This document shows positions 12,489 to 52,784 of a stretch of DNA of 64,000 nucleotides, piece by piece. The DNA comes from a virus (Duplodnaviria; Heunggongvirae; Uroviricota; Caudoviricetes), in the IMG/VR virus record IMGVR_UViG_3300035659_000001; one strand, written 5' to 3'. Position numbers and translations under genes: made by a program. The notes below the pieces were generated by a model, which was not told the DNA's origin, did not search any database, and saw only the letters and a list, made by a program, of their open reading frames with translations. Position 1 is the first letter of the stretch. Each line of letters starts with the position of its first letter.

Positions 12489-12499
12489 TAGGAGAAAAT

Positions 12500-36224: not shown

Positions 36225-36231
36225 AAAGGTA

Positions 36232-36585: not shown

Positions 36586-36610
36586 CATTATTTTATGAAG
36601 GAGTATAAAA

Positions 36611-38179: not shown

Positions 38180-38182
38180 ATA

Positions 38183-38585: not shown

Positions 38586-38794
38586 AAGAATGTGAAAAGA
38601 AAGACGAAAATGATAGAATGTGTAAGTGTTGTACTTTCGGATTTTATAAGACAGATCTAAGTCTTTCATTTCCATATATACCACTCATAGTCACAAACAT
38701 AGTTGAAGACGGAAAAATAATGAAACAGGGCGTCTCAAGAATATCATGTCTATATGGAAAAAAGAATCGAGAGATAAATGATAAAAAATTTTAA
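38582..38794 (+). CDS. Small Cys-rich hypothetical protein
   Basis: ATGA overlap. Confidence 0.6.
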   Translation: MKECEKKDENDRMCKCCTFGFYKTDLSLSFPYIPLIVTNIVEDGKIMKQGVSRISCLYGKKNREINDKKF

Positions 38795-39191: not shown

Positions 39192-39251
39192 ACAATATGA
39201 AATCAATAAACTATTACCAGATAAAATCAAAAACCTGTTATAGGAGTCTAT

Positions 39252-39716: not shown

Positions 39717-39724
39717 GAGAATCT

Positions 39725-40291
39725 ATGACAAACTTATTCAAAAATATAAACAATCTTCAAACTGTTGCTAACTGTTTAAGAACATTAGCAAACACATTCA
39801 TAGCAACTAACAGTCAACTATCAACAAATTTGTACACGCTTGCTGACAATGTTATTGAAGAAATGAACACGATTAGCCGAAAAATTAATGAAAATGACTC
39901 TCAAACCACACAAAATACTCCTAATACAACTTTGGTCGATGTTGAATTAGCATCTAAATCAATTCCAACTGCTGCACTCACTTCAAATTTCTGTGAACAA
40001 TTTAACTCAAACTGTGCCTGTCTAAATTGTCACCCAATTGACTATTGTGTAGAAGATCCTTGCGTACATTGTGACGGTCCAACTAATATTATATGTGAAC
40101 CACCAAATTTAACTGATGATTTTGAATTTTGTGAAAAATGTGGTAATGTAATCGAATATCTATCATGTGAGTGCGATGAAAAACCAACAAAAATGAAAGT
40201 TTGTTTAGTCTGTAGAACATTATTATATTTTCCGTTAAAAAAATGTCCAAAATGTATGCGTGATACAACAACAGTATTAATTGAAAGATAG
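39725..40291 (+). CDS. Multi-zinc-finger protein
   Basis: AGGAG RBS; several CxxC pairs in the C-terminal half. Confidence 0.72.
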   Translation: MTNLFKNINNLQTVANCLRTLANTFIATNSQLSTNLYTLADNVIEEMNTISRKINENDSQTTQNTPNTTLVDVELASKSIPTAALTSNFCEQFNSNCACLNCHPIDYCVEDPCVHCDGPTNIICEPPNLTDDFEFCEKCGNVIEYLSCECDEKPTKMKVCLVCRTLLYFPLKKCPKCMRDTTTVLIER

Positions 40292-40301
40292 GAGGTAAAA
40301 A

Positions 40302-40469
40302 ATGGAAGATTTTATGATAGATTGGTCTAATTTACACCAAGTGTCAATGAATGAAGACACTCATTGTGGCGGTCCAAACGGGTGTGAGAGTCGAAAATTT
40401 GATGAGTCAAAGAAAGATTGTCAAGATTGCCTGGCTGAAGCTGGTGCAGAGGAAGATGATGATATATGA
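40302..40469 (+). CDS. Small acidic Cys-containing protein, 55 aa (not in ORF track)
   Basis: AGGAGG RBS; ATGA overlap with the next gene. Confidence 0.7.
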   Translation: MEDFMIDWSNLHQVSMNEDTHCGGPNGCESRKFDESKKDCQDCLAEAGAEEDDDI

Positions 40470-40732
40470 ATAAATTTTGGTATGCTACTGAACAAAGAAT
40501 CTTAAACAAATCAGGCAATATCTATTTTGCAGGAGCAACTTTATGTATTGACCACGAAAACAGAAGCGGCGGCATAGCAATAAATCAAAACGGCACAGGC
40601 TTTGTTTATGGCACATTATCTCGATTACCATATAAAAAAGAAAACGGAAAAATTTACATTCCAGACGATATCATGACTTTAGCAAAACAACTATATTACG
40701 AAACGAAAGGTCGTCATTATGTCGAAAAATAA
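40466..40732 (+). CDS. Hypothetical protein
   Basis: Operon ORF. Confidence 0.65.
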   Translation: MNKFWYATEQRILNKSGNIYFAGATLCIDHENRSGGIAINQNGTGFVYGTLSRLPYKKENGKIYIPDDIMTLAKQLYYETKGRHYVEK

Positions 40733-41138
40733 CATTTTACATATTCATAAATTCATGAAAGGTAATGAGTATTATCTAGATGACAATGAAACATATCTTG
40801 GCACAAAATCTGAAAACAGTAAACACAATTGCATGCACATTGATGAAGATGAAGCTGTTCTTCAATTTTATTTTAACTGTCTTGACTCTGGCGGAGAACA
40901 CACAACAGTTCTCGAATACTTATTCAAATACTTAACTTTAATAAAAGATAAAAATTGGCCATCAGAACACTCTGGTGAATATTATTGCATCATGCATATT
41001 TTAGAAAAAAATGATTTAATTAAAAGCGATGTCAGTATTCGTGTGCCATGGCTAACTGAAAAAGGACAATTAGCATACGATGATATTAAAAATGTCATAG
41101 AAATCCCAGAAATTATCTATCCTGAACCTATTATGTAA
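40719..41138 (+). CDS. Hypothetical protein
   Basis: C-terminal 'SIRVPWLTEKG' suggests a winged-helix-like end. Confidence 0.65.
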   Translation: MSKNNILHIHKFMKGNEYYLDDNETYLGTKSENSKHNCMHIDEDEAVLQFYFNCLDSGGEHTTVLEYLFKYLTLIKDKNWPSEHSGEYYCIMHILEKNDLIKSDVSIRVPWLTEKGQLAYDDIKNVIEIPEIIYPEPIM

Positions 41139-41171
41139 AAGTATGAGTACACCATAAATGAAAGGTAAACT

Positions 41172-41516
41172 ATGAAAAAAGCAAAACCCAAGACTAAAGT
41201 TCTTTGCCCAGATCATTTAGAAGAATTAATTTGGATAAATAAAAACGGACTAAAACATACAAAATTTGTTGAAAAATGTCATGAAATTCCTAAAGATATA
41301 ATAAGCAAACTAAAATTTGAACCATACAAAGCTTTAGGGCACATGTCAGGTCTTACTGATACAAAAGTTTATCCAAGATTAAAAGCCGGAGATGTTCTTA
41401 AATTAAAATCTAGAAAATACGTTTTAGTTGGACACGTAAACAAGAATCTTGGAGTTTGTGACGATTGCACAGATTTTAAAGAAGAAGACATTAAAGAAAT
41501 TGCGTCATTCTTCTAA
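41172..41516 (+). CDS. Hypothetical protein
   Basis: AAGGT RBS. Confidence 0.7.
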   Translation: MKKAKPKTKVLCPDHLEELIWINKNGLKHTKFVEKCHEIPKDIISKLKFEPYKALGHMSGLTDTKVYPRLKAGDVLKLKSRKYVLVGHVNKNLGVCDDCTDFKEEDIKEIASFF

Positions 41517-41577
41517 TGTAATTAATGTTTTTTGTTGTTTAATTCGGTTAAAGTAAACTTTTACAAAAGAGAAAAAC

Positions 41578-41913
41578 ATGGAAAATCTAAAAGAAGCAAC
41601 TGAATTTCTTGATGAATTTTTTAATGATCCAGTCTGGCCCACTGAATATAAAAACGCTTGGCTCATCGTTAAAAAAGAATTAGAAAAATCACTACCCAAA
41701 TTATCAGACGTTGTTGATTATGTCTTTCTTGAACCAGACGCTCAATCTCCAAGAATTGCTGTAGATCGAGCTTACAGATTTATTGACGGCTATTTAAACC
41801 CTATCAAAAACTCAAAACCTCTTAACCTACAAATCTATGAATTAATTAAAAACAAAAACAAATGCACGTATGATGCAGTGATTGTCAAACTATTAGAGAA
41901 TCAAAATGAGTAA
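41578..41913 (+). CDS. Hypothetical protein
   Basis: Operon ORF. Confidence 0.65.
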   Translation: MENLKEATEFLDEFFNDPVWPTEYKNAWLIVKKELEKSLPKLSDVVDYVFLEPDAQSPRIAVDRAYRFIDGYLNPIKNSKPLNLQIYELIKNKNKCTYDAVIVKLLENQNE

Positions 41914-42190
41914 ATTCAATTTCATATTAGATCAACCCATTGAAAAAGAACTCACTCTGCCAACAGACAGATTCACTATCACTTTCATCGACAACTCACA
42001 ACTCACAAAAGACGTCATCTTAGACCCTGAATCAAAAACTATGCTCTTACTCTCTGAACATGAACCTGAACCCTCAGGCTATGGCATAATTGTTGATATC
42101 ACAGACTCAAAAGGTAATCATCTTTACAACATTACCAAAGAACAACCATTGGTCAAAACTCCTTCAATAACAATAGATCTGAATATATGA
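41906..42190 (+). CDS. Hypothetical protein with MSKFNFILD leader
   Basis: Shared N-terminus. Confidence 0.72.
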   Translation: MSKFNFILDQPIEKELTLPTDRFTITFIDNSQLTKDVILDPESKTMLLLSEHEPEPSGYGIIVDITDSKGNHLYNITKEQPLVKTPSITIDLNI

Positions 42191-42540
42191 ATAAATTCAA
42201 CTTTATATTATTAGATGATGACACTATTAAACAGGTATCAGACGAATCCAGTCACGTAATTGAAAAGTCTAATGATGATATTAAAGTAATTGAAGCACTT
42301 GAAAAACACGGTGTGTATAGTAAGAATTGCATTTTTGGTATTAATACTTTTGGATATTATAGCGGACATATTGTATCAGATTCATTCAATGAAAAATCTG
42401 AAGAAGAAAGACAAGCGTTTATCTGGAATATTATTAGACAAGAAATAAGCCCAGAAGATATTGCAAAAATAGCTGGAATAATGCCATTAACTATAGAAGA
42501 ATATAATCGAATTGTCATGGACGTCAATTTCAATGAATAA
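42187..42540 (+). CDS. Hypothetical protein with MNKFNFILL leader
   Basis: Shared N-terminus; C-terminal 'ERQAFIWNII' resembles a BolA-like segment (weak). Confidence 0.72.
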   Translation: MNKFNFILLDDDTIKQVSDESSHVIEKSNDDIKVIEALEKHGVYSKNCIFGINTFGYYSGHIVSDSFNEKSEEERQAFIWNIIRQEISPEDIAKIAGIMPLTIEEYNRIVMDVNFNE

Positions 42541-42664
42541 ATTCAATTTCATACTAGACAGCGTTATTGAACAAACTTCGTTGACTGAAAGATTCATCAC
42601 ATTTCTTGACGGCACACAAATAATAAAAGACATAGACATAAATAATGAAATCATTGTTATCTGA
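42533..42664 (+). CDS. 43-aa protein with MNKFNFILD leader (not in ORF track)
   Basis: MNKFNFILDSVIEQTSLTERFITF..., similar to the N-terminus of ORF 41906. Confidence 0.7.
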   Translation: MNKFNFILDSVIEQTSLTERFITFLDGTQIIKDIDINNEIIVI

Positions 42665-42899
42665 AGACGAACTAACTGATCGCCATCCAAGAAGCGAAGG
42701 TCTAATCACTAAAATAGTTAACTCAAAAAATCATTTCATATTTGATCTATATCCTCTCAACAAACTTGATCAATGCCAACTCATATTCAACACAAAAACT
42801 AATCAAATATACCAATCGGTCAAGCAAATCAGTCTCACTTGGATTGGCATAAAGGCCAATACCTCACCTAAAACTACAACAAATCAAACAAATTCTTGA
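42645..42899 (+). CDS. Hypothetical protein
   Basis: Operon ORF. Confidence 0.55.
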   Translation: MKSLLSEDELTDRHPRSEGLITKIVNSKNHFIFDLYPLNKLDQCQLIFNTKTNQIYQSVKQISLTWIGIKANTSPKTTTNQTNS

Positions 42900-42942
42900 A
42901 ATATAATCTTAAATCTACGACTCAAAACATGAATAATATATT

Positions 42943-43785
42943 ATGAATCCTAAATGGCTAATAGAAAACTTTGACGCTGACAATAACACTGTTAATAACC
43001 TAATCAATGAAGTCAAACGCCAAGGTCTACAACATGAAATTGTAAAATATCTACCATTCGGCTCAGGCAAATATGACAAATTCTCTAACGAAGACTGCGT
43101 AATATATCAAGGCAGCATTAATCTCGCTCAACAACTAATAAAAGAAAAACATTATATTCCGGGACCTTGGCTAACTGCTACAAACTATGAATGTACAACT
43201 TATTATTCTTATCTTGGCAAATACTTATTTAACAATGACTATTTAATATTGCCCAGAGCAGAAGTATTACGAAAAAAATTATGGCTCTACAACGAAGCTT
43301 TCAACAAACACTATGAACAATTATTTTTCAGACCAAACTCAGGCCTCAAACCATTCACTGCTAAATTATTTAACGAATACAATGATTTTGACTCGCAATG
43401 GTCCTGGATCGAAAACTTCACCGAACCAAACTCACTAATTATCATATCAACACCCAAAATAATTCTTGCTGAATATAGATTCATTTGCGCAGAATATGAA
43501 ATAATATCTGGCTGCCAATATCGCAAAAATGATAACATTAACCATAATACTTATACTACAGAAGCACTTGAACTTGCTAAAAAAATAGCTGCTGAAGACT
43601 TTCAACCAGACCCTATGTTCACAATTGACATTTGCTACGACGGCAACTACCACTTACTAGAAATAAACTCTTTCTCATGTGCAGGCCTCTATACTTGCCC
43701 ATTAGAACCAATAATAACTACTGCAAACAAAATTGCACTAAAAGAATGGACTGATGTTGACAACATCAAATGGAAAAAATCATGA
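42943..43785 (+). CDS. ATP-grasp domain protein
   Basis: 'LFFRPNSGLKPFT', 'EYRFI', 'FTIDI', 'LLEINSFSCAGLY'. Confidence 0.82.
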   Translation: MNPKWLIENFDADNNTVNNLINEVKRQGLQHEIVKYLPFGSGKYDKFSNEDCVIYQGSINLAQQLIKEKHYIPGPWLTATNYECTTYYSYLGKYLFNNDYLILPRAEVLRKKLWLYNEAFNKHYEQLFFRPNSGLKPFTAKLFNEYNDFDSQWSWIENFTEPNSLIIISTPKIILAEYRFICAEYEIISGCQYRKNDNINHNTYTTEALELAKKIAAEDFQPDPMFTIDICYDGNYHLLEINSFSCAGLYTCPLEPIITTANKIALKEWTDVDNIKWKKS

Positions 43786-44057
43786 TTAATCTAAATGACA
43801 AAATTATTTTCTTAATAGTCGCTATCATTGCAATAGTAGTAATAGTACAAACTATTGTCAACAGTCGAAGACCCATAATCACTTATACCAAAAATCCAAC
43901 TGACCCAATAACACAAAGAATAATCGCAATAAAAGAACTTTCAGAAAACTCATACTTATCTGCATCACAAATAGAAAACTTAATCAAACTTGCTTTAGAA
44001 AATAAACCTGAAAAAATAGAAATGAAAACTCAAATTAATGCGCCAAAAAAAGAGTAA
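43770..44057 (+). CDS. Single-TM membrane protein
   Basis: N-terminal hydrophobic helix. Confidence 0.65.
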   Translation: MEKIMINLNDKIIFLIVAIIAIVVIVQTIVNSRRPIITYTKNPTDPITQRIIAIKELSENSYLSASQIENLIKLALENKPEKIEMKTQINAPKKE

Positions 44058-44062
44058 AAATC

Positions 44063-44176
44063 ATGAGTCCATCAGTTGTAATATGTCCAATTTGTAGATA
44101 CCAACATTGGAACTGTTTTACTTGCGCAGAAACACAAGGAACCGAATACTGGAAAAAGGCGAAGGATATACCATGA
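44063..44176 (+). CDS. 37-aa zinc-finger peptide (not in ORF track)
   Basis: CPIC...CFTC; ATGA overlap with the next gene. Confidence 0.6.
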   Translation: MSPSVVICPICRYQHWNCFTCAETQGTEYWKKAKDIP

Positions 44177-44643
44177 TCTCAAAACAAGACGTTGAATCAA
44201 CAAAATCAGAAATAAATCAACTACAAACAATCATTAACCAAACTCTCAATCAACAATCTCAAAAAATAAAAGAACTCCTATCAAAAGTTCTATCATGCGA
44301 AGAAATCCTAAACCAATCTCCCTGGAATCTCCAACCAAAAAACACTCTATTCTCTACAACTATTCGTCATTCTATACTAGCAGATTTCTTACAATCAGAT
44401 TACCACTGCGCTCTTGAAAATGAAACTGTCAATTTATGCTTTAGTGACTCTGACATATATCTATACTTCAACAACAAAGACTCACTTACACAACTAATAG
44501 AAAAATATCACATCAAACTTGAAACTGATCACTTACTTCGCCAAGCAAAAAACTTACAAAAAACTATTCAAACAAACCAAAAAGAACTTGACATAATCAA
44601 CCAAGAAATTAACAAAATTCAACAAATAAACAACAAACTATGA
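44173..44643 (+). CDS. Coiled-coil hypothetical protein
   Basis: Start 44173 inferred from the ATGA overlap. Confidence 0.65.
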   Translation: MISKQDVESTKSEINQLQTIINQTLNQQSQKIKELLSKVLSCEEILNQSPWNLQPKNTLFSTTIRHSILADFLQSDYHCALENETVNLCFSDSDIYLYFNNKDSLTQLIEKYHIKLETDHLLRQAKNLQKTIQTNQKELDIINQEINKIQQINNKL

Positions 44644-44915
44644 AAATAACTACCTCAACTCTCAAATCCCTCGGCTTCACCAAACTACCTCTCTCATCTA
44701 CTCATGACGTTTTTGTCAACAACACAACTCATTACCCACTCAATCAACTCAGACTCCTCTACATCAAAAAACTAAAACTATCATATTACAACAACAACAC
44801 TAACTATAAATGTACTGACCTCAAATCTCTAATCTCAGCGATCTACTTCTCCGGCGTCAATTACGGCCACAACCAAAAACTACAACAAATAAAAAAACTA
44901 CTCGAACTCCAATAA
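44640..44915 (+). CDS. Hypothetical protein
   Basis: ATGA overlap; G-depleted codons. Confidence 0.6.
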   Translation: MKITTSTLKSLGFTKLPLSSTHDVFVNNTTHYPLNQLRLLYIKKLKLSYYNNNTNYKCTDLKSLISAIYFSGVNYGHNQKLQQIKKLLELQ

Positions 44916-44925
44916 AGGACTTTCT

Positions 44926-45168
44926 ATGATCTACTTATTCAACTACCCAGCAAAATGCCCAAACCAAATAAGCTCTACCATAACTCTCAATCTCGACAAC
45001 ATCACATTCATCGGATCTATACGCCAAACATGCGACGGCGCTACTTTCCCTATCATTTTCTCTAAAAAATCTATCACTATCTCTTGCCCATCTGAAGCTG
45101 CAGAACTTCTTGAAACAGAACGCATAAAACTAATCACAACTCTACAAAAACATATCAAGACATCATGA
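44926..45168 (+). CDS. Hypothetical protein
   Basis: AAGGA RBS. Confidence 0.65.
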   Translation: MIYLFNYPAKCPNQISSTITLNLDNITFIGSIRQTCDGATFPIIFSKKSITISCPSEAAELLETERIKLITTLQKHIKTS

Positions 45169-45591
45169 ACAAATTCAACTTCATCCTCAACGATCAACCC
45201 ATCGAATTATCAAAAACACCTCACGACATTCTCTCTGACTACATTGAACTCGACGTCAACTACCTCCTCTCTAACAAACTCGCTCTCATCTTCGGCGGCT
45301 GCCTCCGCGACATCATCTCAAACGCTTCCCATCCAAACCCTTCAACGTTGACATAGACATAGTCACTTTCAACCCATCCTGCAACGAAATAACACAATCT
45401 CTCTCATCATACACACCGGCGGCTACTCAATAACCTCATCAAACTCTGACTCTCTCCACCTCTACTCAACTCACAACATCAACGAACCAATTACACTCAC
45501 AAAACACACTAAAACAATCCCCAACGCGGCTGGACACAAACTAAATACTAACTTTATATTCTCTCTCTCTATATATATTTCACAACAATAA
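45165..45591 (+). pseudogene. Frameshifted paralog of nucleotidyltransferase 36940, with MNKFNFIL leader
   Basis: 'LIFGGCLRD' in one frame, 'DIDIV' in a second frame (about 45350) and 'HNINEPITL' in a third (about 45475). Confidence 0.65.
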
Positions 45592-45611
45592 CAAAACTCA
45601 CGGAGAACTCT

Positions 45612-45896
45612 ATGCAACCTAATAACATAAACAAAGAATTTATCAAAATCGCTATCTCAATCTCAAACCCACTCTCATCCTTCAACTCCTACACAAAAAA
45701 CAAATACTTCATCCACCCACACACTCGCAACAAAGTCAAATTCGAATCCCTCCCTATCCATACTCAAAAATTCATCAAATCTAAATGGCTCTCTCTACAA
45801 CCCTCAAGAGACAAAAACCTCTTCCTATCCATCGAATCAGACTTACAATACAAAAACCCTAAAGAAAACCAACTAGAATCTCAACTCGCTTACTAA
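45612..45896 (+). CDS. Small protein consisting mainly of the EFxKxA leader plus HPxTxxKVKFxSLP module
   Basis: GGAG RBS; 'INKEFIKIA...FIHPHTRNKVKFESLP'. Confidence 0.75.
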   Translation: MQPNNINKEFIKIAISISNPLSSFNSYTKNKYFIHPHTRNKVKFESLPIHTQKFIKSKWLSLQPSRDKNLFLSIESDLQYKNPKENQLESQLAY

Positions 45897-45898
45897 TC

Positions 45899-46213
45899 AT
45901 GAAACACTCAAAATCTATACAAACAGAATTCATAAAACACGCTATCACTATCACTAACCCTCACAAAACCTTCACAGACTTCATCTACAACAAAACCTTC
46001 ATCCACCCACACACTCGCAACAAAGTCAAATTCTCCTCTCTCCCACTCTCTACTCAAAAATTCATCAAAACACAATACGAACACCAAAGAATCCAAGAAC
46101 TCTACAACCTAACTCACAAAACTTTCTCACAAAAACCTCTTGACTTCTACCCCGGCGCTCAACACTCACCCCAACTAAAACACATCCTCGGCTACCCATC
46201 TTGGGCTTATTAA
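45899..46213 (+). CDS. Tandem paralog of ORF 45612
   Basis: 'IQTEFIKHA...FIHPHTRNKVKFSSLP'. Confidence 0.75.
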   Translation: MKHSKSIQTEFIKHAITITNPHKTFTDFIYNKTFIHPHTRNKVKFSSLPLSTQKFIKTQYEHQRIQELYNLTHKTFSQKPLDFYPGAQHSPQLKHILGYPSWAY

Positions 46214-46762
46214 CTACAATAATAAACCACACACTATATTAAAATCTACACTAAAATAAATCACACCCCCCTTAATCTACATAACCCTCTACAAACTCCC
46301 TCACTACATCTACTTAATTATTACAAGAACAATCTACTTTCCAAACCCACTAATAACTCACTCTATTAATAATCACTATACTCTTCTCACTCTCTATATA
46401 ACCTCAATCTATATTAAATAACCCTAAAACAACAAATCTATCCCATATCCTTCAATTACATAACCCTCTACAAAACTCGCTCCCAATCCAATAATAATAT
46501 CCCTTTAACCAATATAACCTCTAACACAACTATAAATCATTACAACTAGTCCCACAACTCTTTATTTAACATAATAATAACATGCCAGTATCTTACAGGC
46601 TACTACATAATAACAAAAACTAAAAAACATGAATACTACCCAATTCATAAACAATTATCTAGTAGAACAACAAAAACCAGATCTATAACAATAACAATAA
46701 AACATTAAAGTAATATAAATACAGATAACAAGAACCCAAATATCAAACAACATATTGTGGCA

Positions 46763-46957
46763 GTAAGGTAACAAGAGCCATTAAACTGTTGTTTCACCAC
46801 CACTTACACTAGCAATAACAATTTCACCTATAATTGTGACCCAACATATTTGTAGGGTAGGGTAGCAAGAGCCCCCAAATAAGAAACAAAACTTCCTATT
46901 TTAGAGCCTTAAACTCATGAAAACCCTACATCTATATGCGGTAGGGTAGCAAGGGCC
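46763..46957 (+). repeat. Three 17-bp direct repeats GTA(A/G)GGTA(A/G)CAAG(A/G)GCC
   Basis: Copies at 46763, 46857 and 46941; spacings 94 and 84 bp. Confidence 0.85.
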
Positions 46958-47020
46958 AGGCCCACACTCAACTTTCACGGCTCATTCTCAGACGCTCACT
47001 TCACATTACAGCTCACACTA

Positions 47021-48000
47021 TATTATCGATTATCACTTGTAAACCATTTCGGCGAATCGTCTAGAGATAATGTGCGGTTTAAAAAGTTGCTGTTAAAACA
47101 CAAGCACATTTACAGTTGGCCTGCTTTGAGAATCGCGTGTAATCTATTCGTGATTTTTTAAAAAAATGTAATATTTTAGGACTTGATAAAATATTTAGTA
47201 CTTGTGAAAAATACCCTAGAGAGAATAGTAACTGATAAAGTGAGATTCTAGAGAGTTATTTTTTAAAATATAAAGCGATCGTGCGCGATTAATGAAACGA
47301 GTTTACAAAAGAGTACTGAAAAAGACTGAAATTTGAGTGTGCTTTTTGAAGCTGATCTAGAGATAATGTGCGATTAACGAAAGTTGTTTACGAAATGGAT
47401 ATGAATTGTGAGTGTATAAATTTTGAATCACGAAGTGATAGTTCGTGAATAGCGAAAATCGAGTGAGTTATTTTTGAACTAGTACGTATGAGTGATTTTT
47501 TAAAATCGTGTGAGCTTTGTGGGCGAATTGTGAAAATATTTATAATAGATAAATAGCTACATTTTGAAGAGATTAATATTGTTTTATTATCTATTATCAC
47601 TTGTAAACTATTTCAGCGAGTCGTCAACACTTTGTGTGCGATTTAAAAATAGGTAGTAATTTGACATGAAAAATCGTTTGTAGTTTATTTTGATAATTAT
47701 ACATGACGTGTTCACGATTTTAAAAAAATGATGTATGAAAATGGTGAATAATAAGATTGTTTACATGTGTAAGTCTGGCCTATAGAAAAAAGACGCTAAA
47801 AAATATGATCTTTTTGACTTATTTTTTAATGAGATGAGGTAATGATGCGTGTTTTGCAAAACGAGTATACAAATGTGAACTGAAATGTGCTGTTTTTTGC
47901 TCACTGTTTTTTTAAATTGATCTAGAGATAATGTGTAAAAGACGAAAAGTAGTTTACTAAATGAACATTAATCATGAGTGCTTTTTTTTATGATCATGAT
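47021..48000 (+). repeat. Degenerate tandem duplication, period about 565 bp, with TCTAGAGATAATGTG cores
   Basis: 47021 matches 47585, 47148 matches 47712, 47353 matches 47918; cores at 47060, 47356, 47921. Confidence 0.8.
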
Positions 48001-48138
48001 GTACTGTGAGTGATTTGTAAAAAAATAGATTGTGATAGTAAGAATTAAGTGTTAAAAATATGTTTGAGTTTTTAGAAGTATAAAGACTGTGTGAGTGTAA
48101 TGCGAAAAAGCTTACAGTAAATAAGCAGTAGTTTTATC

Positions 48139-48235
48139 CATTTGTACATACGAGCTGCAGCTTAGTCTCAAAAATCAAAAATGTTATCAGTGACTGTTGT
48201 TAGAGAATTTTATGAAATGGGTCGAACTAGTACAA
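48139..48235 (+). repeat. About 97-bp dispersed repeat, copy 1
   Basis: Aligns end to end with 54572-54668. Confidence 0.8.
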
Positions 48236-48321
48236 ATTAAATCTAATTTGATGAGTGTTGTCTTTATAATCACACATAAATTTGTATGAGATGTAGTAGT
48301 GTACAAATAGAAAACGGCCAT

Positions 48322-49146
48322 TTATTGATAGTTTTTAGTTTTTTTAATATGAATTGCTAGTTTGGTAAGGGCTTGAACTTTAATTTGTCTGATGCGTTCA
48401 CGTGATAAATTGTGTAGTTTGCTTAGATTGTCTAATGTATAATTGTTGTCGTCTAGATAGTTATAATATTTTACTATTATGTCATATTCTATTTTAGTTA
48501 GTTTGTTTAGAGCGTAATCTATTAATAATTTGATTGATTGAATGTTATTTGAATCTTCTTGTTTTGAATCTATTATTGTGTCATGAAGAGTGAGTTCTGA
48601 ATCATTATGGATAATTGTATCCATTGATGTATAGTTGTAGATAGTTAAATAAATATTCTTGAGAGCTTTTTTGTTAGTAGTTGGTATCGTTTTTTTAAGA
48701 TGGTTTATTATTTCATGGTTAGTTGGAATTAATCCAGTTTGTTCAAGTTCATACTTAGTTTTGATATATTTATTTATTATGTTAAAATAATTAATAGGCG
48801 TTCGAATAATATCTATATTAGCAAGTTCATTCATAATTTCTCTTACAATATAGTGTCCAGCATAAGATACGAATTTACAATTTTGTTTTGAGTCAAAAAG
48901 TTTAGTTGCTTTAATCAATCCAAGATTTCCTGCACTAATTAATCTGTCTACATCTATATTATATTTTTTACTATATTTATTTGCAATAGTAGCTACGAAT
49001 AATAAATTAGATGTTATTAAAGTGTTTAAAGCTGTTTTGTTGCCGTTTTTAATTTTAACGGCTAGATCTAGCTCTTCATCTTTTGATAATAAACGATATT
49101 TTGTTAATTTTTTATAATAGTTATTTAGATTTTTATTAACACGCAT
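48322..49146 (-). CDS. Sigma-70 family RNA polymerase sigma factor (regions 1.2, 2, 3, 4)
   Basis: 'LLSKDEELDLA', 'LITSNLLFVATIA', 'AGNLGLIKATKLFD...KFVSYA', 'TLDNL...LSRERIRQI'. Confidence 0.93.
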   Translation of the reverse strand: MRVNKNLNNYYKKLTKYRLLSKDEELDLAVKIKNGNKTALNTLITSNLLFVATIANKYSKKYNIDVDRLISAGNLGLIKATKLFDSKQNCKFVSYAGHYIVREIMNELANIDIIRTPINYFNIINKYIKTKYELEQTGLIPTNHEIINHLKKTIPTTNKKALKNIYLTIYNYTSMDTIIHNDSELTLHDTIIDSKQEDSNNIQSIKLLIDYALNKLTKIEYDIIVKYYNYLDDNNYTLDNLSKLHNLSRERIRQIKVQALTKLAIHIKKTKNYQ

Positions 49147-49304
49147 TTTAGACTCAGTTTTTAGATTATTTAATATATTTGTATATGAAAGATATTATTT
49201 AGTTTTTATGTTTATTTGTAAACATGTGTACAAATGGCAAACAGCCATTTTTGTGCGAGATCATAGCACCGATGATAGTTGATTTTTCAGCATGACTGTT
49301 ACAC

Positions 49305-49571
49305 TTATGACATTTGTTTGTTGATAGAATTTAGTGCAGTTTGAAAAGCATTCCAAACAGATATTGGATCAGCTGTCCATAAAGTAAGGTCGTTATTTTG
49401 AGTTTGCATGATGTCTATATGCCCGCCAACTGATGCACCAATACGGCCAATAACATTCTTATTTTCATCAACAACGTCACCAAAACAATCAGCGATGTAC
49501 ACGTGTAATTGTCCGCCGTGTTTGTCACATATTTTTTCAAAAGTAATAGGTATTGTGATTTTCATTTCCAT
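49305..49571 (-). CDS. Hypothetical protein
   Basis: Operon ORF. Confidence 0.65.
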   Translation of the reverse strand: MEMKITIPITFEKICDKHGGQLHVYIADCFGDVVDENKNVIGRIGASVGGHIDIMQTQNNDLTLWTADPISVWNAFQTALNSINKQMS

Positions 49572-49762
49572 CAGCCTGATAGAGATTTGAAGTTAGTTTC
49601 TAGGCAGCAATATTTTTTATTACCGCATTCGGGACAAATTATTTGTTTAGTATGCTTAAATATACAGCCCTTACCATTACAAAGATCACAAACTACAAAT
49701 ACTTTGACGTCATTGCTATACACAATAAATAGACATGTTATTAATAATAATAATGTTTTCAT
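49571..49762 (-). CDS. Signal-peptide-bearing DnaJ-type zinc-finger peptide
   Basis: 'MKTLLLLITCLFIV', 'CDLCNGKG...CPECG'; TAATG coupling to the ligase stop. Confidence 0.6.
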   Translation of the reverse strand: MKTLLLLITCLFIVYSNDVKVFVVCDLCNGKGCIFKHTKQIICPECGNKKYCCLETNFKSLSG

Positions 49763-50997
49763 TAGTCTTCTGATTTGAATTTGAGTTGAGAGATCGTACA
49801 TTCAGAAATATCAATATCATCTCTGAGTTCTTTGAAAGCTGGCTGATATAAGCAACCACCGCGATAAGCGTATAGGTATTTAATTTCTCCTATAGAGTTT
49901 ATGGGAGGTCGACGGTTGCAAGAGCAATAGCCTACAAATTCACGTTGGCCTTGATCATTAATGAGCTCCATACCAATAGAAGCTTTATTGGGACGACCTG
50001 CTACAATAATAACTGAGCATTCTGCGTAGAATTTGAGTTTGAAAGCGTCTGTGTTTTTGCCGGATGAGTAGGTAGCTGAGAGGCGTTTGAAAACGATACC
50101 TTCTTTACATGATGTCCATAAGTAGTTATAGAGAGCACGTTTTTCTTCTTTGGTAGAAGCGTATTTGAGGATTTTGATATTAAGGCCGAAAGAGAGTGAA
50201 GATAGTTTAGCATGGCGCATGTGATAGGGTAAGTTACGCATGTTGATGCCGTCGAGTTCAAGGATATCCCAGGTCCAGAAAGTGCTGTTGACTTGTTCAC
50301 CGTCTATTAGAAGTTCATGATTGCATTGACGGAGTGAGGGTTCAAATTCAGGAGCACAGCCGCAAGAGATTCCTTTTCTGTTTCGGACGATGAGTAGGTT
50401 GTTTTTGATTTGAAGGGTTAAGTGTTTGCCGTCTTTTTTCTCTTGGGCACAGAAATCACGGTTATTGAGATATTGTTCGAGTTCTGATTTATCGATTTCA
50501 GTGAGCAGTTGAGGTGTTATTAAATCAGTTAGTACAGTTGGCATTTTATAACAAGAACATGTATCACAGTTTGGTTTATGACCATGATCATCTGTAAGTT
50601 GGCAACCTTTTTTGTGAGCACAATCAGTGTTAGAGTTATTCATAGCTCTTGTAGTGTTCATATCTCTGTCAACTTCAACTTGTTTTCGAGGATGACGCAT
50701 GTTCATGATGGTGTCATAAGCAGTTTGAATTTTTAAAAATTCAGTAGGGTCATCACCGTCACGATCTGCTCGATGTAATTTTACAAGACGTCTGTATGAT
50801 TTTTTGACAGCTTCATCGTCTGCTGTTGGTTCAAGTTCAAGAATCATGAAAGCAGACATGCCGAGTATAGATTGAATAGTGTTTGATTTTGCAAAAACGT
50901 CTCCAAAAGTGGCTGCCCATTGAGTAGGATTGCCGTTTGGGCCGGTGTAAGTGCCGTATTTTGAAGTTGAATCAGTCCATATAGATTTTTTTGGCAT
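49762..50997 (-). CDS. J-domain (degenerate HPD) fused to an ATP-dependent ligase
   Basis: 'AFMILEL...VKKSYRRLVKLHRADRDG...FLKIQTAY'; 'EKKDG', 'IDGE', 'WDIL', 'EGIVFK', 'KLK', OB-fold; AAGGAG RBS at MPKK. Confidence 0.8.
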   Translation of the reverse strand: MPKKSIWTDSTSKYGTYTGPNGNPTQWAATFGDVFAKSNTIQSILGMSAFMILELEPTADDEAVKKSYRRLVKLHRADRDGDDPTEFLKIQTAYDTIMNMRHPRKQVEVDRDMNTTRAMNNSNTDCAHKKGCQLTDDHGHKPNCDTCSCYKMPTVLTDLITPQLLTEIDKSELEQYLNNRDFCAQEKKDGKHLTLQIKNNLLIVRNRKGISCGCAPEFEPSLRQCNHELLIDGEQVNSTFWTWDILELDGINMRNLPYHMRHAKLSSLSFGLNIKILKYASTKEEKRALYNYLWTSCKEGIVFKRLSATYSSGKNTDAFKLKFYAECSVIIVAGRPNKASIGMELINDQGQREFVGYCSCNRRPPINSIGEIKYLYAYRGGCLYQPAFKELRDDIDISECTISQLKFKSED

Positions 50998-51042
50998 GGA
51001 TATCTCCTTATAGATATAATCAGTTATTTTCAATGATTTTGG

Positions 51043-51234
51043 TCAGCAATTATGATATTCGTTATAAGATAAAGTGCCGCCTTTTTTTACGTATTGTTTG
51101 TAGCTCGCTTCTTTTTGCGAGGTGTACATATTTGTTTTGCATTTGAGACCGTCACTGTGAATATTGTGAGTGCAAGTTGTATATTCGGGACAGTCCCAAT
51201 TACAGCAAGTCGTTTTGTGATTGATATTTACCAT
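51043..51234 (-). CDS. Small Cys-rich protein
   Basis: Operon ORF. Confidence 0.55.
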   Translation of the reverse strand: MVNINHKTTCCNWDCPEYTTCTHNIHSDGLKCKTNMYTSQKEASYKQYVKKGGTLSYNEYHNC

Positions 51235-51503
51235 AAGTCTTCACTTGTTAAATTGAAAAATTTTGTATTTGTATTTTTGAGTTGACCAGCGTTTAGAGCG
51301 ATGCTTTTTGCTTCTATGCGATCGACGTATCGACCGGTAGAAGTGACAAAGCCGAATTCCATGACTAATAAGTCAAAGCTTTTTTGAACTAAAAATTTTA
51401 TAATGTCATTGTGACGACCAGGTTTTGGTAATACAGTGACGTCGTTATTTACTCGAATTGCTGCTAGTTGAATTGATTCAAGAGTAGTTGTAGATGTGTT
51501 CAT
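51228..51503 (-). CDS. Hypothetical phage protein
   Basis: 'GFVTSTGRYVDRIEA...AGQ...SEDLW'; AGGAG RBS. Confidence 0.75.
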   Translation of the reverse strand: MNTSTTTLESIQLAAIRVNNDVTVLPKPGRHNDIIKFLVQKSFDLLVMEFGFVTSTGRYVDRIEAKSIALNAGQLKNTNTKFFNLTSEDLW

Positions 51504-51787
51504 ATATTCTCCTTAGTATTTTGAACAGTTACTGTGTAGAAAGTATTGTCTTGTTTTTTGGCTGTTACAGTTCCGTCCGTGAAATGAAGGACAAAAATGT
51601 CAGCATCGTTTTTGTATTCAGAGAGAGTGCCGACAGGTCCATTGACTTTCATTGTGAATTCCATAGAGTGTTTGATTGCTTTGACGCAATTGACGCCTTG
51701 TTCTGGATAAGCAGTCAAGTTTGTGATTGCTTTATCACAAGTTTTCGTTTTGGAATAGATTGTTCGGTATAAATGTAATGTTTTCAT
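51500..51787 (-). CDS. Hypothetical protein
   Basis: GAGG RBS. Confidence 0.7.
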   Translation of the reverse strand: MKTLHLYRTIYSKTKTCDKAITNLTAYPEQGVNCVKAIKHSMEFTMKVNGPVGTLSEYKNDADIFVLHFTDGTVTAKKQDNTFYTVTVQNTKENI

Positions 51788-51796
51788 TTTGCCTCT

Positions 51797-52126
51797 TCAT
51801 TTGGTTTTTGATAATTGACATGCGTCAAAGTCCTTTTTTATGATTGAAATTTCATTTTCTATTTTTTTAGTTGCAGTTTTAAAGATCTCTGTTTTTAATG
51901 ATTGAGGTGTAGTCCAGTTTACTGAACTTTCATATACTTCACTTATTTCTTTTTGACGTTCTTGCTGATATTTGTCAAGTAGCGAGTTGAATTGTTTTTT
52001 GATTTCTTGGTTTTCAGCTTGCACTATGTTGATGATGTGTTTGGTCATATTTTCGATATATCGACCGTACGCATCTCGACCTAAGCAAGCGACGTTTTCA
52101 AGAATTGCAGTGATTTCTTGTTCCAT
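51797..52126 (-). CDS. Hypothetical protein
   Basis: AAGGA RBS. Confidence 0.7.
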   Translation of the reverse strand: MEQEITAILENVACLGRDAYGRYIENMTKHIINIVQAENQEIKKQFNSLLDKYQQERQKEISEVYESSVNWTTPQSLKTEIFKTATKKIENEISIIKKDFDACQLSKTK

Positions 52127-52128
52127 GA

Positions 52129-52353
52129 TTATTCCTTTACAAGCGATAAAGAACGCGATTTGTGAGATTTTTTCCGGTTGTCTTTTGTGAGCCAGCGATA
52201 AGCTGTTGATTTACTGACTGGTTTTACTTCACCGGAGACCTGACCGTATTTCGATTTTGTTGATGTCCAGATACTCATATAGATACTCCTATTTGTTTCA
52301 TGATTTTCAAAACTGATGTATTGCCTGTGATAGTTATTGTTTTTTCTTTCCAT
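52129..52353 (-). CDS. Hypothetical basic protein
   Basis: Operon ORF. Confidence 0.6.
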   Translation of the reverse strand: MERKNNNYHRQYISFENHETNRSIYMSIWTSTKSKYGQVSGEVKPVSKSTAYRWLTKDNRKKSHKSRSLSLVKE

Positions 52354-52510
52354 TTTGAATTACAGTTAACTTATCGTCAAACTTGCCATGCTTTTTGATT
52401 GTAAAATTCACTTTTGCTTCTTTTAAAGTGTTTAACAAAATTGTTGCAAAACTTGGCGACATGTTAAAGTTACCATAAGTTTTCGGAATATGCAAAAGTG
52501 AATTAAGCAT
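52334..52510 (-). CDS. Small hypothetical protein (true start probably 52510)
   Basis: AAGGAG RBS before MLNSLL; longer track ORF overlaps the SWIM gene. Confidence 0.55.
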   Translation of the reverse strand: MLNSLLHIPKTYGNFNMSPSFATILLNTLKEAKVNFTIKKHGKFDDKLTVIQNGKKKQ

Positions 52511-52784
52511 GAGTGAGAGCTCCTTTAATGTACGATTCAAGCGACTGACGGCCGTAAGCGCGACCTTTGAGACCAGCAGCGGTAAGATGTTTGCACTGGC
52601 CATGCCGGATATTTCCGCGACAGCTGCAGGTCCAGTATTGAGCACCGGGAGCGTTGTCATAAGAAACAAGATAAAGGTTGTTTGAAGATTCTGACCTGAC
52701 TTTGAAGCGAACTTTGTAACGGTCTGAATCGGGAAGAAGTTCAACTGCTGTTGCTTTGATTTTTGCTAAAAAGTTCATGATCAT
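52503..52784 (-). CDS. SWIM zinc-finger protein
   Basis: 'WTCSCRG...CKHL'. Confidence 0.82.
   Translation of the reverse strand: MIMNFLAKIKATAVELLPDSDRYKVRFKVRSESSNNLYLVSYDNAPGAQYWTCSCRGNIRHGQCKHLTAAGLKGRAYGRQSLESYIKGALTHA

What the first reader, a model, noticed from the sequence alone, without database searches (positions are those of the whole stretch)
41900..50500. Extreme, symmetric, distance-dependent strand asymmetry centred at about 46.8 kb
Approaching 46.6 kb the + strand loses G and gains C (3 G in 46261-46560; codons shift to C/A endings from about 42 kb). After about 47 kb the pattern inverts (for example 15 G versus 4 C in 48061-48120) and fades outward. On both sides the coding strand is the C/A-rich one, so this is not ordinary coding-strand bias. 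The pattern (C to T plus A to G on one strand) is what prolonged single-strandedness produces, as in mitochondrial heavy strands. Inference: a bidirectional or strand-displacement origin, or two linear ends joined in the assembly, strong enough to reshape proteins and decay nearby genes.
Basis: partly seen in the sequence, partly recalled or inferred. Interest (0 to 1): 0.82.

Follow-up and report, generated by a model that had tools for sequence, protein, structure and literature searches.

The report
Strand-skew dipole at phage origin-like site
In a very large uncultured sediment phage, one DNA strand almost loses guanine on approaching a conserved gene-free element and the pattern mirrors on the other side; this is most likely the mutational footprint of DNA that is repeatedly single-stranded where DNA synthesis starts, which could mark origins or genome ends in uncultivated phages.

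Summary
There are 3 G against 97 C in 46261-46560. GC skew reaches -0.85, flips at 47,050, and reaches +0.5. On the left the C-ending codon fraction climbs from 0.16 to 0.75 over about 10 kb (rho -0.81, p 6e-9). It is not a chimera: at least five independent assemblies bridge the flip. Four related phages (85%, 72%, 49%, 46% marker identity) show the same dipole. In three of them it sits at a conserved core (TGYGGTAGG..AGGCCC..TTTC.CG) inside a long gene-free gap between convergent gene blocks.

The bias follows position, not gene family, is strongest in non-coding DNA, and ranks 3rd > 1st > 2nd codon position. That points to a strand-specific mutation bias like that of mitochondrial DNA. Its polarity fits synthesis starting at the core and moving outward while displacing one strand.

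Whether the core is an internal origin, the boundary of a roughly 21-kb terminal repeat (contig depth doubles there in three samples), or both, cannot be settled without raw reads. The relative's whole-genome skew shows no origin-type V. The stretch right of the core is conserved functional DNA, not decayed genes. Earlier notes of this scan describe similar mirror-skew islands in other phages.

The parts
36000..46213 (+). Left arm: tightly packed small + strand genes. Their composition shifts progressively toward C/A and away from G/T as they approach the core. Includes the ATP-grasp gene 42943-43785 and the paralog pair 45612-45896 / 45899-46213. Almost none have counterparts in the 416-kb relative.
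   Evidence: Codon-position composition; gradient statistics; synteny; family control
45707..45743 (+). 37-nt exact repeat shared by the two paralog genes, with its second copy near 46000-46036. It breaks the short-read contigs. It is unrelated to the skew flip itself.
   Evidence: Contig pieces and depths; repeat family D1
46214..46560 (+). Nearly G-free C/A-rich trailer after the last left-arm gene (A 0.40, C 0.31, G 0.009, T 0.28). Relatives have an equally G-poor stretch here that cannot be aligned with it.
   Evidence: relatives
46561..46744 (.). A+T-rich block (GC 0.24, A 0.52 on the + strand); candidate DNA-unwinding element
   Evidence: inference from position next to the iterons
46745..46957 (+). 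Three 35-nt direct repeats (iterons) ending in GGTAGGGTAGCAAGRGCC, spaced 94 and 84 nt apart
   Evidence: Repeat family D4
46938..47020 (+). Conserved core at the skew switch: TGCGGTAGG..AGGCCC..TTTCACGGCTCATTCTCAGACGCTCACT. The 22-nt block 46979-47000 occurs once here and once each in relatives L032 and L033. The cumulative G-C minimum falls at 47,050.
   Evidence: Alignment A2; uniqueness; minimum
47021..48250 (+). Conserved gene-free region with internal repeats: TCTAGAGATAATGTG at 47060, 47356 and 47921, and 65-nt units at 47021 and 47585. The + strand is G/T-rich (G 0.20, C 0.10).
   Evidence: Repeat families D2, D3, D7; 90.4% identity to L032; units present in L032 and L033 only in this gap; no ORF over 70 aa; no Rfam or tRNA match
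48299..48323 (-). Copy of the phage promoter-like motif AAATGGCnGTTTnCnATTTGTACAC, just after the sigma gene's stop codon and pointing into the gene-free region. It is not conserved in L032.
   Evidence: (D18)
48322..52744 (-). Right arm: minus-strand genes converging on the core (sigma-70 family factor 48322-49146; DnaJ + ATP-dependent ligase fusion 49762-51033; small ORFs). Coding-strand GC skew runs from -0.24 next to the gap to about -0.1 at 5.5 kb.

Best explanation
The 2.1-kb gene-free gap (46214-48321) holds a conserved cis-acting DNA element: an A+T-rich block, three iterons, a conserved core at 46.94-47.02 kb, and conserved repeat units.

I propose that DNA synthesis starts at this element and runs outward in both directions, with complementary-strand synthesis delayed for the first few kilobases (strand-displacement, D-loop or R-loop type initiation). 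On each side the displaced strand is the one whose 5' end faces the core: the minus strand on the left, the plus strand on the right. That strand is single-stranded for longest near the core.

Single-stranded DNA deaminates C to U and A to hypoxanthine faster than duplex DNA. The displaced strand therefore drifts toward G+T and its partner toward C+A, with strength fading over 3-10 kb. Because both flanking gene blocks point at the core, their coding strands are the C/A-rich ones, and their codons and amino acids are dragged along.

Shown here: the composition, its gradient, its positional nature, the conserved core, and recurrence in relatives. Inferred: that single-strandedness causes it, and that the core starts DNA synthesis. 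Open: whether the core is an internal origin, the left boundary of a roughly 21-kb terminal repeat from which end-primed synthesis starts, or both.
For: - Spectrum. Unconstrained sites in the left arm reach A 0.38-0.40, C 0.31-0.46, G 0.01-0.03, T 0.15-0.28. The shift ranks 3rd > 1st > 2nd codon position and is strongest in non-coding DNA. This order matches the deamination gradients described for mitochondrial genomes (PMC3269015).
- Monotonic distance dependence on the left (rho -0.81, p 6e-9).
- Positional, not gene-specific. The relative's homologue of the gap-adjacent paralogs lies in its main body with skew -0.18 and C3 fraction 0.19, against -0.72 and 0.75 here. The widely distributed ATP-grasp gene has the value expected for its position.
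- The flip (47,050) coincides with a core conserved in phages whose marker protein is 85%, 72% and 46% identical. The flanking G-poor sequence there cannot be aligned, so the composition is renewed rather than inherited.
- The same dipole appears in L006/G001 (-0.42/+0.43), L033 (-0.54/+0.81) and L035 (-0.44/+0.79, decaying within about 3 kb on both sides). It is absent where the marker gene sits without a long gap (L034, L036), and absent at the 17 ordinary convergent junctions of G001.
- Origin-like furniture: an A+T-rich block plus iterons here, and four TGAGATCYC copies within 260 nt at the relative's switch against 0.39 expected in 21 kb.
- Precedent for scale. T4 R-loop origins give leading-strand-only synthesis of about 2.5 kb when the helicase is missing (PMC3016281).
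- Polarity. Models that expose 3' tails (resection, end-replication gaps) predict the opposite sign. Outward displacement predicts the observed sign (reasoning from the coordinates).
Against: - No initiator, primase-loader or terminase gene was found beside the gap. DnaA boxes are not enriched.
- The 416-kb relative has no V-shaped cumulative skew. Its genome looks unidirectional, so the site is not a classical bidirectional origin for the whole replicon.
- Both gene blocks would meet outward-moving forks head-on, which is unusual for an origin.
- The arms are unequal, and in G001 adjacent genes differ widely (-0.54, -0.13, -0.49, +0.04). This needs gene turnover as an extra assumption.
- Every skewed arm is also the sense strand of genes, so selection on transcripts cannot be fully separated from mutation.
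- T5, whose terminal-repeat boundary has the same gap-between-convergent-genes architecture, shows no such skew.
- Too few polymorphisms were available to polarise substitutions.
Confidence: 0.5

Rival explanations
1. The core is a physical genome end. It would be the left boundary of a long direct terminal repeat of about 21 kb (about 46.9 to about 68 kb) and/or the packaging start site. The skew would then come from end-related DNA transactions: recombination-dependent replication primed by invading ends, and duplication of the repeat by displacement synthesis during concatemer processing. This overlaps the best explanation in chemistry but differs in what the element is.
For: - Contig depth steps from 27.3 to 51.5, from 36.8 to 67.8-70.2, and from about 4 to 7.1-8.8 at about 46.0 kb in three samples. 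One 23.7-kb contig carries the double depth to about 69.7 kb.
- No alternative branch or loose end appears at the step. The 37-nt repeat unitig has only about twice single depth.
- A second long repeat-rich gap with a C-rich + strand to its left begins at about 67.4 kb, and three assemblies end there.
- The homologous pair of gaps in G001 is also about 21 kb apart.
- Contigs of L032 and L033 end 0.2-0.5 kb beyond the core.
- The segment carries host-takeover-like accessory genes: sigma factor, ligases, GmrSD-like.
- T5's repeat boundary lies in a 1.8-kb gene-free gap between convergent blocks.
- Earlier notes of this scan tie similar mirror-skew islands to mapped ends (unchecked).
Against: - Depth is one figure per contig, so the step cannot be placed better than 46.0-47.3 kb.
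- A variant strain in a fourth sample shows no doubling.
- A unidirectional origin firing rightward predicts nearly the same depth ratio.
- The 46% relative has the core and dipole but no second gap.
- The core sequence is absent from the second gap.
- T5 lacks the skew.
- Models based on 3' tails at ends predict the wrong sign for the two end-proximal arms.
Confidence: 0.25
2. The single-stranded DNA comes from transcription, not replication. Transcripts of each convergent block read through the core into the opposite arm. There the nascent RNA is G-rich on a C-rich template and forms R-loops that stall and terminate it. The looped-out non-template strand is deaminated, which deepens the skew in a self-reinforcing way. 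The element would then be a mutual termination zone.
For: - No intrinsic terminator lies between the converging blocks.
- A promoter-like motif at 48323-48299 fires into the gene-free region.
- Leftward read-through RNA over 46214-46560 would be 31% G and 0.9% C.
- GC skew co-oriented with transcription predicts R-loops and is linked to termination at closely spaced genes (PMC3787257).
- The polarity and the decay with distance are as observed.
Against: - Ordinary convergent junctions in the relative show nothing of the kind.
- The promoter copy is not conserved in the 85% relative.
- It does not explain the conserved core, the iterons, or the depth step.
- Read-through of 5-10 kb antisense to packed genes is a strong assumption.
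- No RNA data were available.
Confidence: 0.12
3. The composition is selected, not mutational. Genes and trailers near the gap would need G-poor, C-rich transcripts, for example as strong Rho-loading (rut-like) RNA, as unstructured RNA, or as RNA resistant to a G-dependent endoribonuclease. The phage encodes an RNase Y homologue at 14394-15884.
For: - In every arm the C-rich strand is the sense strand.
- Surviving G's sit in start codons and Shine-Dalgarno-like GGAG.
- Adjacent genes in G001 differ in degree.
- The G-poor trailer is kept in composition though not in sequence in three relatives.
Against: - A smooth 10-kb gradient across unrelated genes is hard to obtain by selection.
- Purging G does not require replacing T by C, yet the C/T ratio at third positions changes about 15-fold.
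- Amino-acid composition is distorted, with first-position G falling from 0.25 to 0.10, which is costly.
- The same family elsewhere in a genome is not G-poor.
Confidence: 0.08
4. Assembly artefact: two unrelated genomes, or two ends wrongly joined, at 46.2-48.3 kb.
For: Short-read contigs break at 45.7-46.03 kb.
Against: - That break is caused by a 37-nt repeat in two paralog genes.
- Contigs of three runs run uninterrupted from 46004 through the flip to 49.2-69.7 kb.
- Two JGI contigs of 122 and 136 kb from other samples span 33-51 kb at 99.9% identity.
- Four related phages have the same flip.
Confidence: 0.01

Closest known systems
Strand-displacement mutational gradient of animal mitochondrial DNA (A+C-rich light strand, G+T-rich heavy strand; PMC3269015)
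   Same: The same pair of changes, C to T and A to G on the exposed strand. The end composition of free sites is similar (A about 0.4, C 0.3-0.45, G 0.01-0.03 here; the mitochondrial values are from my own knowledge). Strength depends on distance from a start point and ranks 3rd > 1st > 2nd codon position.
   Different: Here it is local, fading within 3-10 kb of a genome of at least 262 kb, and two-sided around one point. It lies in a double-stranded DNA phage with a DnaE-type replicase. No single-stranded intermediate is documented.
GC-skew switch at bacterial and phage replication origins, including huge phages (PMC7162821)
   Same: The sign change has origin polarity: the + strand is C-rich to the left and G-rich to the right. 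Iterons and an A+T-rich block lie at the switch.
   Different: Classical skew is a step of about 0.05-0.2 that holds across a whole replichore. This one is a spike of up to 0.85 that decays. The relative's genome-wide curve has no V here, and genes converge on the site instead of diverging.
R-loop-primed origins: T4 oriF/oriG, ColE1, mitochondrial LSP/CSB (PMC3016281)
   Same: A transcript entering an A+T-rich or skewed element could prime leading-strand synthesis and leave the non-template strand single-stranded. Leading-strand-only tracts of a few kilobases are documented for T4 in vitro.
   Different: No promoter-plus-DUE unit is demonstrated here. The T4 minimal origins are about 100 bp, and I know of no report of a compositional footprint around them.
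Long terminal repeats of T5 (10.2 kb) and SPO1-type phages carrying early host-takeover genes
   Same: There is a roughly 21-kb segment at double depth that carries accessory and takeover-like genes. In T5 the repeat's inner boundary lies in a 1.8-kb gene-free, repeat-rich gap (injection stop signal, site-specific nick) between convergent gene blocks.
   Different: T5's arms have ordinary G-rich coding strands. Termini of this phage are not mapped. One relative has the core but no second gap.
Two-armed pac sites (SPP1 pacL-pacC-pacR, P1 pac), as named in earlier notes of this scan
   Same: A protein-binding core flanked by repeat-bearing arms in a gene-free stretch.
   Different: No terminase gene is nearby. 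Pac sites span hundreds of base pairs, and I know of no report that they imprint kilobases of coding sequence.

Membership tests
Replication origin marked by a GC-skew switch | Sign change of GC skew with origin polarity (+ strand C-rich on the left, G-rich on the right) | tested here: met
   cumulative minimum at 47,050
Replication origin marked by a GC-skew switch | The switch is the global minimum of the replicon's cumulative skew (V shape) | tested here: not met
   The relative G001 (416 kb) falls monotonically with no V at its homologous junction. Within the window the + strand is G-rich both at 1-40 kb and at 49-54 kb. The window's own whole genome was not available.
Replication origin marked by a GC-skew switch | A+T-rich unwinding element plus repeated initiator-binding sites | tested here: met
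   46561-46744 has GC 0.24. There are three 35-nt iterons at 46745-46957, and TGAGATCYC x4 in the relative. Binding was not tested.
Replication origin marked by a GC-skew switch | Adjacent initiator gene or DnaA boxes | tested here: not met
   No initiator family appeared in Pfam or PHROG scans of flanking ORFs. DnaA boxes are below chance. There is only a weak, sub-threshold DnaA_C-like hit in G001.
Replication origin marked by a GC-skew switch | Supports initiation of replication (nascent strands, 2D gels, autonomous replication) | not testable with these tools
   Needs experiments or raw reads.
Mitochondrial-type single-strand deamination gradient | One strand A+C-rich and its partner G+T-rich at unconstrained sites | tested here: met
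Mitochondrial-type single-strand deamination gradient | Strength scales with distance from the start point | tested here: met
   Left arm rho -0.81, p 6e-9; right arm coding skew rho 0.83, p 0.01; L035 decays on both sides
Mitochondrial-type single-strand deamination gradient | Effect ranks 3rd > 1st > 2nd codon position and is independent of gene identity | tested here: met
   family control
Mitochondrial-type single-strand deamination gradient | Directional excess of C-to-T and A-to-G substitutions on the exposed strand | tested here: inconclusive
   Only a handful of SNPs fall in the arms. The two-sequence comparison with L032 cannot be polarised.
Direct terminal repeat boundary (T5/SPO1 type) | Repeat at twice the depth of the unique region | tested here: inconclusive
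   About 1.7-1.9x in three runs from 46.0 to at least 53 kb (to 69.7 kb in one run), and about 1x in a fourth. These are contig means only.
Direct terminal repeat boundary (T5/SPO1 type) | Fixed read starts or ends at the boundaries | not testable with these tools
Direct terminal repeat boundary (T5/SPO1 type) | The model phage shows the same compositional dipole at its boundary | tested here: not met
   T5 boundaries at 10,219 and 111,532 have ordinary coding-strand skew.
R-loop-primed origin (T4 oriF/oriG, ColE1) | Promoter whose transcript enters the unwinding element, conserved among relatives | tested here: inconclusive
   A motif at 48323-48299 points into the gap but is absent at that place in L032.
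R-loop-primed origin (T4 oriF/oriG, ColE1) | Persistent RNA-DNA hybrid at the site | not testable with these tools
   Needs DRIP-type or nuclease footprinting.

The most novel reading that the evidence does not exclude
This is a self-reinforcing R-loop origin built from two convergent operons. Each operon's transcripts run through the conserved core into the other arm. There the RNA turns G-rich on a nearly G-free template and forms a stable hybrid that primes outward leading-strand synthesis. The displaced strand deaminates, which deepens the skew and makes the next R-loop easier. The resulting kilobase-scale hypermutable zone is where the phage keeps its fastest-evolving small genes: the hypervariable left arm with shared N-terminal leaders. 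If so, a compositional dipole of this kind would be a sequence-only marker of replication or packaging start sites in uncultivated phages.
Probability: 0.2. Interest if true: 0.85.

Novelty: new variant of a known kind. Interest (0 to 1): 0.62.

Why it matters
Origins and genome ends of uncultivated large phages are almost never known, and their genome-wide skew often carries no usable signal. If this local dipole with a conserved core marks where DNA synthesis or packaging starts, such sites could be found from sequence alone.

It would also show that single-strand exposure can drive a stretch of a double-stranded DNA virus to mitochondrial-like composition. That is strong enough to shift codon choice about 15-fold and to strip G-starting codons from proteins, creating a local fast-evolving zone. 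The prediction is directly testable with read-terminus analysis, long reads, and nascent-strand or R-loop mapping on the sediment samples that hold this phage at 27-70x depth.

Tried and rejected
- **Chimeric assembly:** rejected.
- **Inverted terminal repeat or hairpin telomere joined in the assembly:** no inverted-repeat homology between the arms and no long palindrome at the core.
- **tRNA, tmRNA or a known RNA family in the gap:** none. Folding of the core as DNA is unremarkable (z -1.9).
- **Sigma-70 promoters or intrinsic terminators:** no enrichment.
- **DnaA boxes:** fewer than chance.
- **General effect of convergent transcription:** rejected. 17 ordinary convergent junctions in G001 have normal G-rich coding strands.
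- **A 'one-sided' junction at the start of G001:** this was my own error. That region is one giant minus-strand repeat gene of at least 1666 codons.
- **Second copy of a 51-nt element seen in run X1:** not in the window. Two metagenome scans gave nothing or an unrelated chance hit, L029.
- **Shared sequence between gap A and the second gap or G001's gaps:** nothing beyond a promoter motif and a few 11-12-mers near chance level.
- **Whole genome of the window:** not held. The 262-kb contig was never served.
- **Viral-contig searches** with the ATP-grasp and sigma proteins found no relatives. Megablast against phage records found nothing.
- **T5 as a positive control** for skew at terminal-repeat boundaries: negative.
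- **Tsamsa and UAB_Phi87 records:** inconclusive, because the records do not start at mapped ends.
- **Substitution polarity from strains:** too few SNPs.
- **Initiator or terminase genes near the gap:** none found.

Full report
**Context.** The window is part of a very large uncultured phage from sediment metagenomes. Earlier notes of this scan call it a megaphage with a split DnaE polymerase. The ATP-grasp gene of the window also sits on a 261,940-nt contig. GC content is about 0.30. Genes at 1-46.2 kb lie on the + strand. They include a type IB topoisomerase, an RNase Y homologue, a Ser/Thr kinase and a radical-SAM aminomutase. From 48.3 to 52.7 kb the genes lie on the minus strand, including a sigma-70 family factor and a DnaJ + ATP-dependent ligase fusion. 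The two blocks converge on a 2.1-kb stretch without credible ORFs.

**The observation.**
- GC skew in 300-nt windows falls from about 0 at 41.5 kb to -0.85 at 46.3-46.6 kb, rises to +0.44 to +0.51 at 47.2-48.1 kb, and fades by 49.3 kb.
- The extreme lies 6.8 sd from the rest of the window. Only 1 of 1386 windows of a 416-kb relative reaches |0.7|.
- Base frequencies on the + strand go from A 0.395, C 0.127, G 0.169, T 0.31 at 1-40 kb to A 0.40, C 0.31, G 0.009, T 0.28 at 46214-46560.
- At third codon positions C rises from about 0.1 to 0.42-0.58 while T falls from about 0.37 to 0.15. First-position G falls from about 0.25 to 0.10, and second positions move least.
- The C-ending share of pyrimidine-ending codons climbs from 0.16 (37 genes more than 17 kb away) through about 0.25 at 9-10 kb to 0.75 at 1 kb (Spearman -0.81, p 6e-9).
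- The cumulative G-C minimum is at 47,050 and the keto-amino minimum at 47,046.
- The right arm is weaker: G 0.20 and C 0.10 in the gene-free part, and coding skew from -0.24 to about -0.1 over 5.5 kb.

**Not an artefact.** Logan contigs of four runs from four studies were laid on 40-53 kb.
- They break at 45707-45743 and 46004-46026. The cause is a 37-nt exact repeat inside two paralogous genes (family D1).
- From 46004 single contigs run through the flip to 49.2, 52.3 and about 69.7 kb in three runs.
- Two JGI contigs of 122 and 136 kb from other samples cover 33-51 kb or more at 99.9% identity.

**Anatomy of the gap**.
- 46214-46560: nearly G-free trailer.
- 46561-46744: A+T-rich block (GC 0.24).
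- 46745-46957: three 35-nt iterons, spaced 94 and 84 nt.
- 46938-47020: core.
- 47021-48250: gene-free DNA with internal repeats (TCTAGAGATAATGTG three times; 65-nt units at 47021 and 47585).
- 48299-48323 (minus strand): a copy of the phage promoter-like motif, pointing into the gap.
- No tRNA, no Rfam family, no excess of sigma-70 promoters, and no intrinsic terminator between the blocks.

**Relatives.** The DnaJ-ligase protein has 744 relatives. Five neighbourhoods with DNA were informative.
- **L032** (85% protein identity) aligns to 50997-48308 at 87% and to the gene-free 48246-46937 at 90.4%. The right half of the gap is therefore under purifying selection and is not decayed genes. Homology stops at the third iteron. 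Beyond it L032 has unalignable but G-poor sequence, and the contig ends 215 nt later.
- **L033** (72%) flips from -0.54 to +0.81 within 600 nt, has about 340 nt almost free of G, and ends there.
- **L035** (46%, a genome of about 45% GC) flips from -0.44 to +0.79 across a 1.4-kb gap and decays within about 3 kb on both sides.
- **L006/G001** (49%, a 416-kb IMG/VR contig) goes from -0.42 to +0.43 across a 0.9-kb gap. That gap holds four TGAGATCYC copies within 260 nt, against 0.39 expected in 21 kb.
- A Logan contig at 73% identity has the same gene layout: the ligase, then a 1.9-kb gap, then a converging array of small ORFs.

An alignment of the window, L032, L033 and L035 shows an invariant TGYGGTAGG, then AGGCCC, then TTTC.CG, exactly at the switch. 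The 22-nt block GGCYCATTCTCAGRCGCTCACT occurs once each in the three closest phages and nowhere else in any sequence fetched. Two phages that carry the ligase in another context, without a long gap, have no dipole (L034, L036).

**Position, not gene class.**
- In G001 only the two convergent junctions with long gaps (125.6-126.5 kb and 147.0-147.8 kb) have C-rich coding arms. The other convergent junctions have gaps under 400 nt (most under 250 nt) and ordinary G-rich coding strands.
- I first counted a third, one-sided case at the start of G001. It is in fact one giant minus-strand repeat gene of at least 1666 codons and must be discarded.
- The G001 homologue of the two paralogs that abut the gap lies in G001's main body with skew -0.18 and C-ending fraction 0.19, against -0.72 and 0.75 here.
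- The ATP-grasp gene, a widespread family, has the value expected for its distance.
- Between relatives the G-poor trailer keeps its composition but not its sequence.

These points, the codon-position ranking and the non-coding maximum argue for a strand-specific mutation bias tied to distance from the core. The changes needed are G to A and T to C on the + strand of the left arm, which equals C to T and A to G on the minus strand, with the mirror image on the right. These are the deaminations favoured in single-stranded DNA and held responsible for mitochondrial gradients (PMC3269015).

**Which strand, which process.** On both sides the affected strand is the one whose 5' end faces the core. 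That is the strand displaced by a polymerase starting at the core and moving outward.
- Exposed 3' tails, from 5' resection of ends or from unreplicated lagging-strand ends, would give the opposite sign.
- Non-template-strand deamination by the arms' own sense transcription would also give the opposite sign.
- Three processes fit: an origin whose first kilobases are copied as leading strand only; end-primed or nick-primed displacement synthesis at a terminal-repeat boundary; and R-loops formed by transcripts that read through the core into the opposite arm. In the third case the RNA becomes G-rich on a C-rich template, the configuration known to favour R-loops (PMC3787257).
- T4 origins work through R-loops and give about 2.5 kb of leading-strand-only synthesis without the helicase (PMC3016281). 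That matches the scale seen here.

**Origin or end?**
- *For an origin:* the polarity, the A+T-rich block and the iterons.
- *Against a classical origin:* G001's cumulative skew falls monotonically over 416 kb with nearly all genes on one strand. About 30% of huge phages show such a pattern, read as unidirectional replication (PMC7162821). Genes converge on the site, and no initiator gene or DnaA-box cluster was found.
- *For a physical boundary:* contig depth is 27.3 left of 45.7 kb and 51.5 from 46.0 to about 69.7 kb in X1. It is 36.8 against 67.8-70.2 in X2, and about 4 against 7.1, 7.7 and 8.8 in X4. No alternative branch or loose end appears at the step, and the repeat unitig has only about twice single depth.
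- The double-depth contig ends in a second long repeat-rich gap that starts at about 67.4 kb. The + strand is again C-rich to its left (-0.2 to -0.54), and three assemblies stop there.
- Synteny equates these two gaps with G001's two gaps. Both pairs are about 21 kb apart, and the main body is inverted relative to the segment between the two phages.
- T5 offers an architectural precedent. Its 10.2-kb repeat ends inside a 1.8-kb gene-free gap with the injection stop signal and a nick, between convergent blocks.
- T5 nevertheless has ordinary skew there. The 46% relative lacks a second gap. A variant strain in X5 shows no doubling. A rightward-firing unidirectional origin would give nearly the same depth ratio.
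- Depth is a single mean per contig, so the step can only be placed between 46.0 and about 47.3 kb.

I therefore keep one mechanism, outward displacement synthesis from the core, as the best explanation. The identity of the element stays open.

**Prior knowledge.** Five literature searches found no description of a local, decaying, near-total strand purge around a site in a double-stranded DNA phage. Earlier notes of this scan, unchecked AI notes, report comparable mirror-skew islands in other phages, some linked to packaging sites or terminal repeats. My one completed test of that link, on T5, was negative for the skew and positive for the architecture.

**Verdict.** 'Decay of genes' and 'chimera' are rejected. 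This is a new variant of replication-associated strand asymmetry, with moderate to high interest.

Noticed in passing
L003:14350-15357 and L004:14350-14641 (window-equivalent about 67.35-68.3 kb, beyond the window's end): A second long gene-free, repeat-rich region. It follows a + strand copy of the promoter-like motif and holds a roughly 330-nt tandem duplication and about ten TTTACAAnnnGCAAT-like motifs. Three independent assemblies end within it or about 1.4 kb past the end of the sequence seen (67.6, 68.3, 69.7 kb). The + strand is C-rich for 3 kb to its left.
   Followed up: partly
L008:1-5000 (G001 contig start): The minus strand carries one uninterrupted frame of at least 1666 codons, made of VDIQ.. 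/ VEFQDLVVIILDHQDIQDK-type repeats. It is a giant repetitive protein gene running off the contig end.
   Followed up: no
L015:14234-16699 (minus strand; G001 154234-156699): An 821-aa phage protein matches the major vault protein shoulder and repeat domains (PF11978 at E 7e-21, PF17795 at E 7e-10). This is unusual for a phage.
   Followed up: no
window 12470-13822, 14394-15884, 23128-24696: A eukaryotic-type topoisomerase IB (E 4e-35), a full-length RNase Y homologue (N-terminal region, KH and HD domains) and a Ser/Thr protein kinase are encoded in the phage's main body.
   Followed up: no
window 49762-51033 (minus strand): A DnaJ domain fused to an ATP-dependent ligase domain. The family has 744 relatives at E < 1e-20, many on contigs of 100-570 kb, and some sources annotate it as LigD-like. 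Function unknown.
   Followed up: partly
window 34206-34437, 37816-37819, 51064-51245: Strain-level structural variation. L002 lacks about 190 nt near 34.2-34.4 kb and has about 990 extra nt at 37.8 kb. Run X4 carries a 180-nt deletion at 51064-51245, and one JGI contig ends at 51,065.
   Followed up: no
window 46786-46836: In run X1 an 18-kb contig at single phage depth (28.2) holds a 51-nt near-copy of this stretch, followed by a similar CAACATATTTGTA. A second copy of part of the core region therefore exists elsewhere in this or a related genome. It could not be retrieved.
   Followed up: partly
Run X1, contig of 17,090 nt (record 6) and protein P0103: A second, related large phage (DnaJ-ligase 52% identical) co-occurs in the same sediment sample at about 21x depth.
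   Followed up: no
L037:11300-14925: The 46% relative encodes a PolX-PHP family polymerase and an NAD-dependent DNA ligase directly after the island genes. The window's phage has its second gene-free gap at that position.
   Followed up: no
L014:2341-2940 (G001 122341-122940): A 199-aa protein 3.5 kb from the relative's gap has a weak, sub-threshold match to the DnaA C-terminal helix-turn-helix domain (E 1.3e-4). It is a possible origin-binding protein candidate.
   Followed up: no
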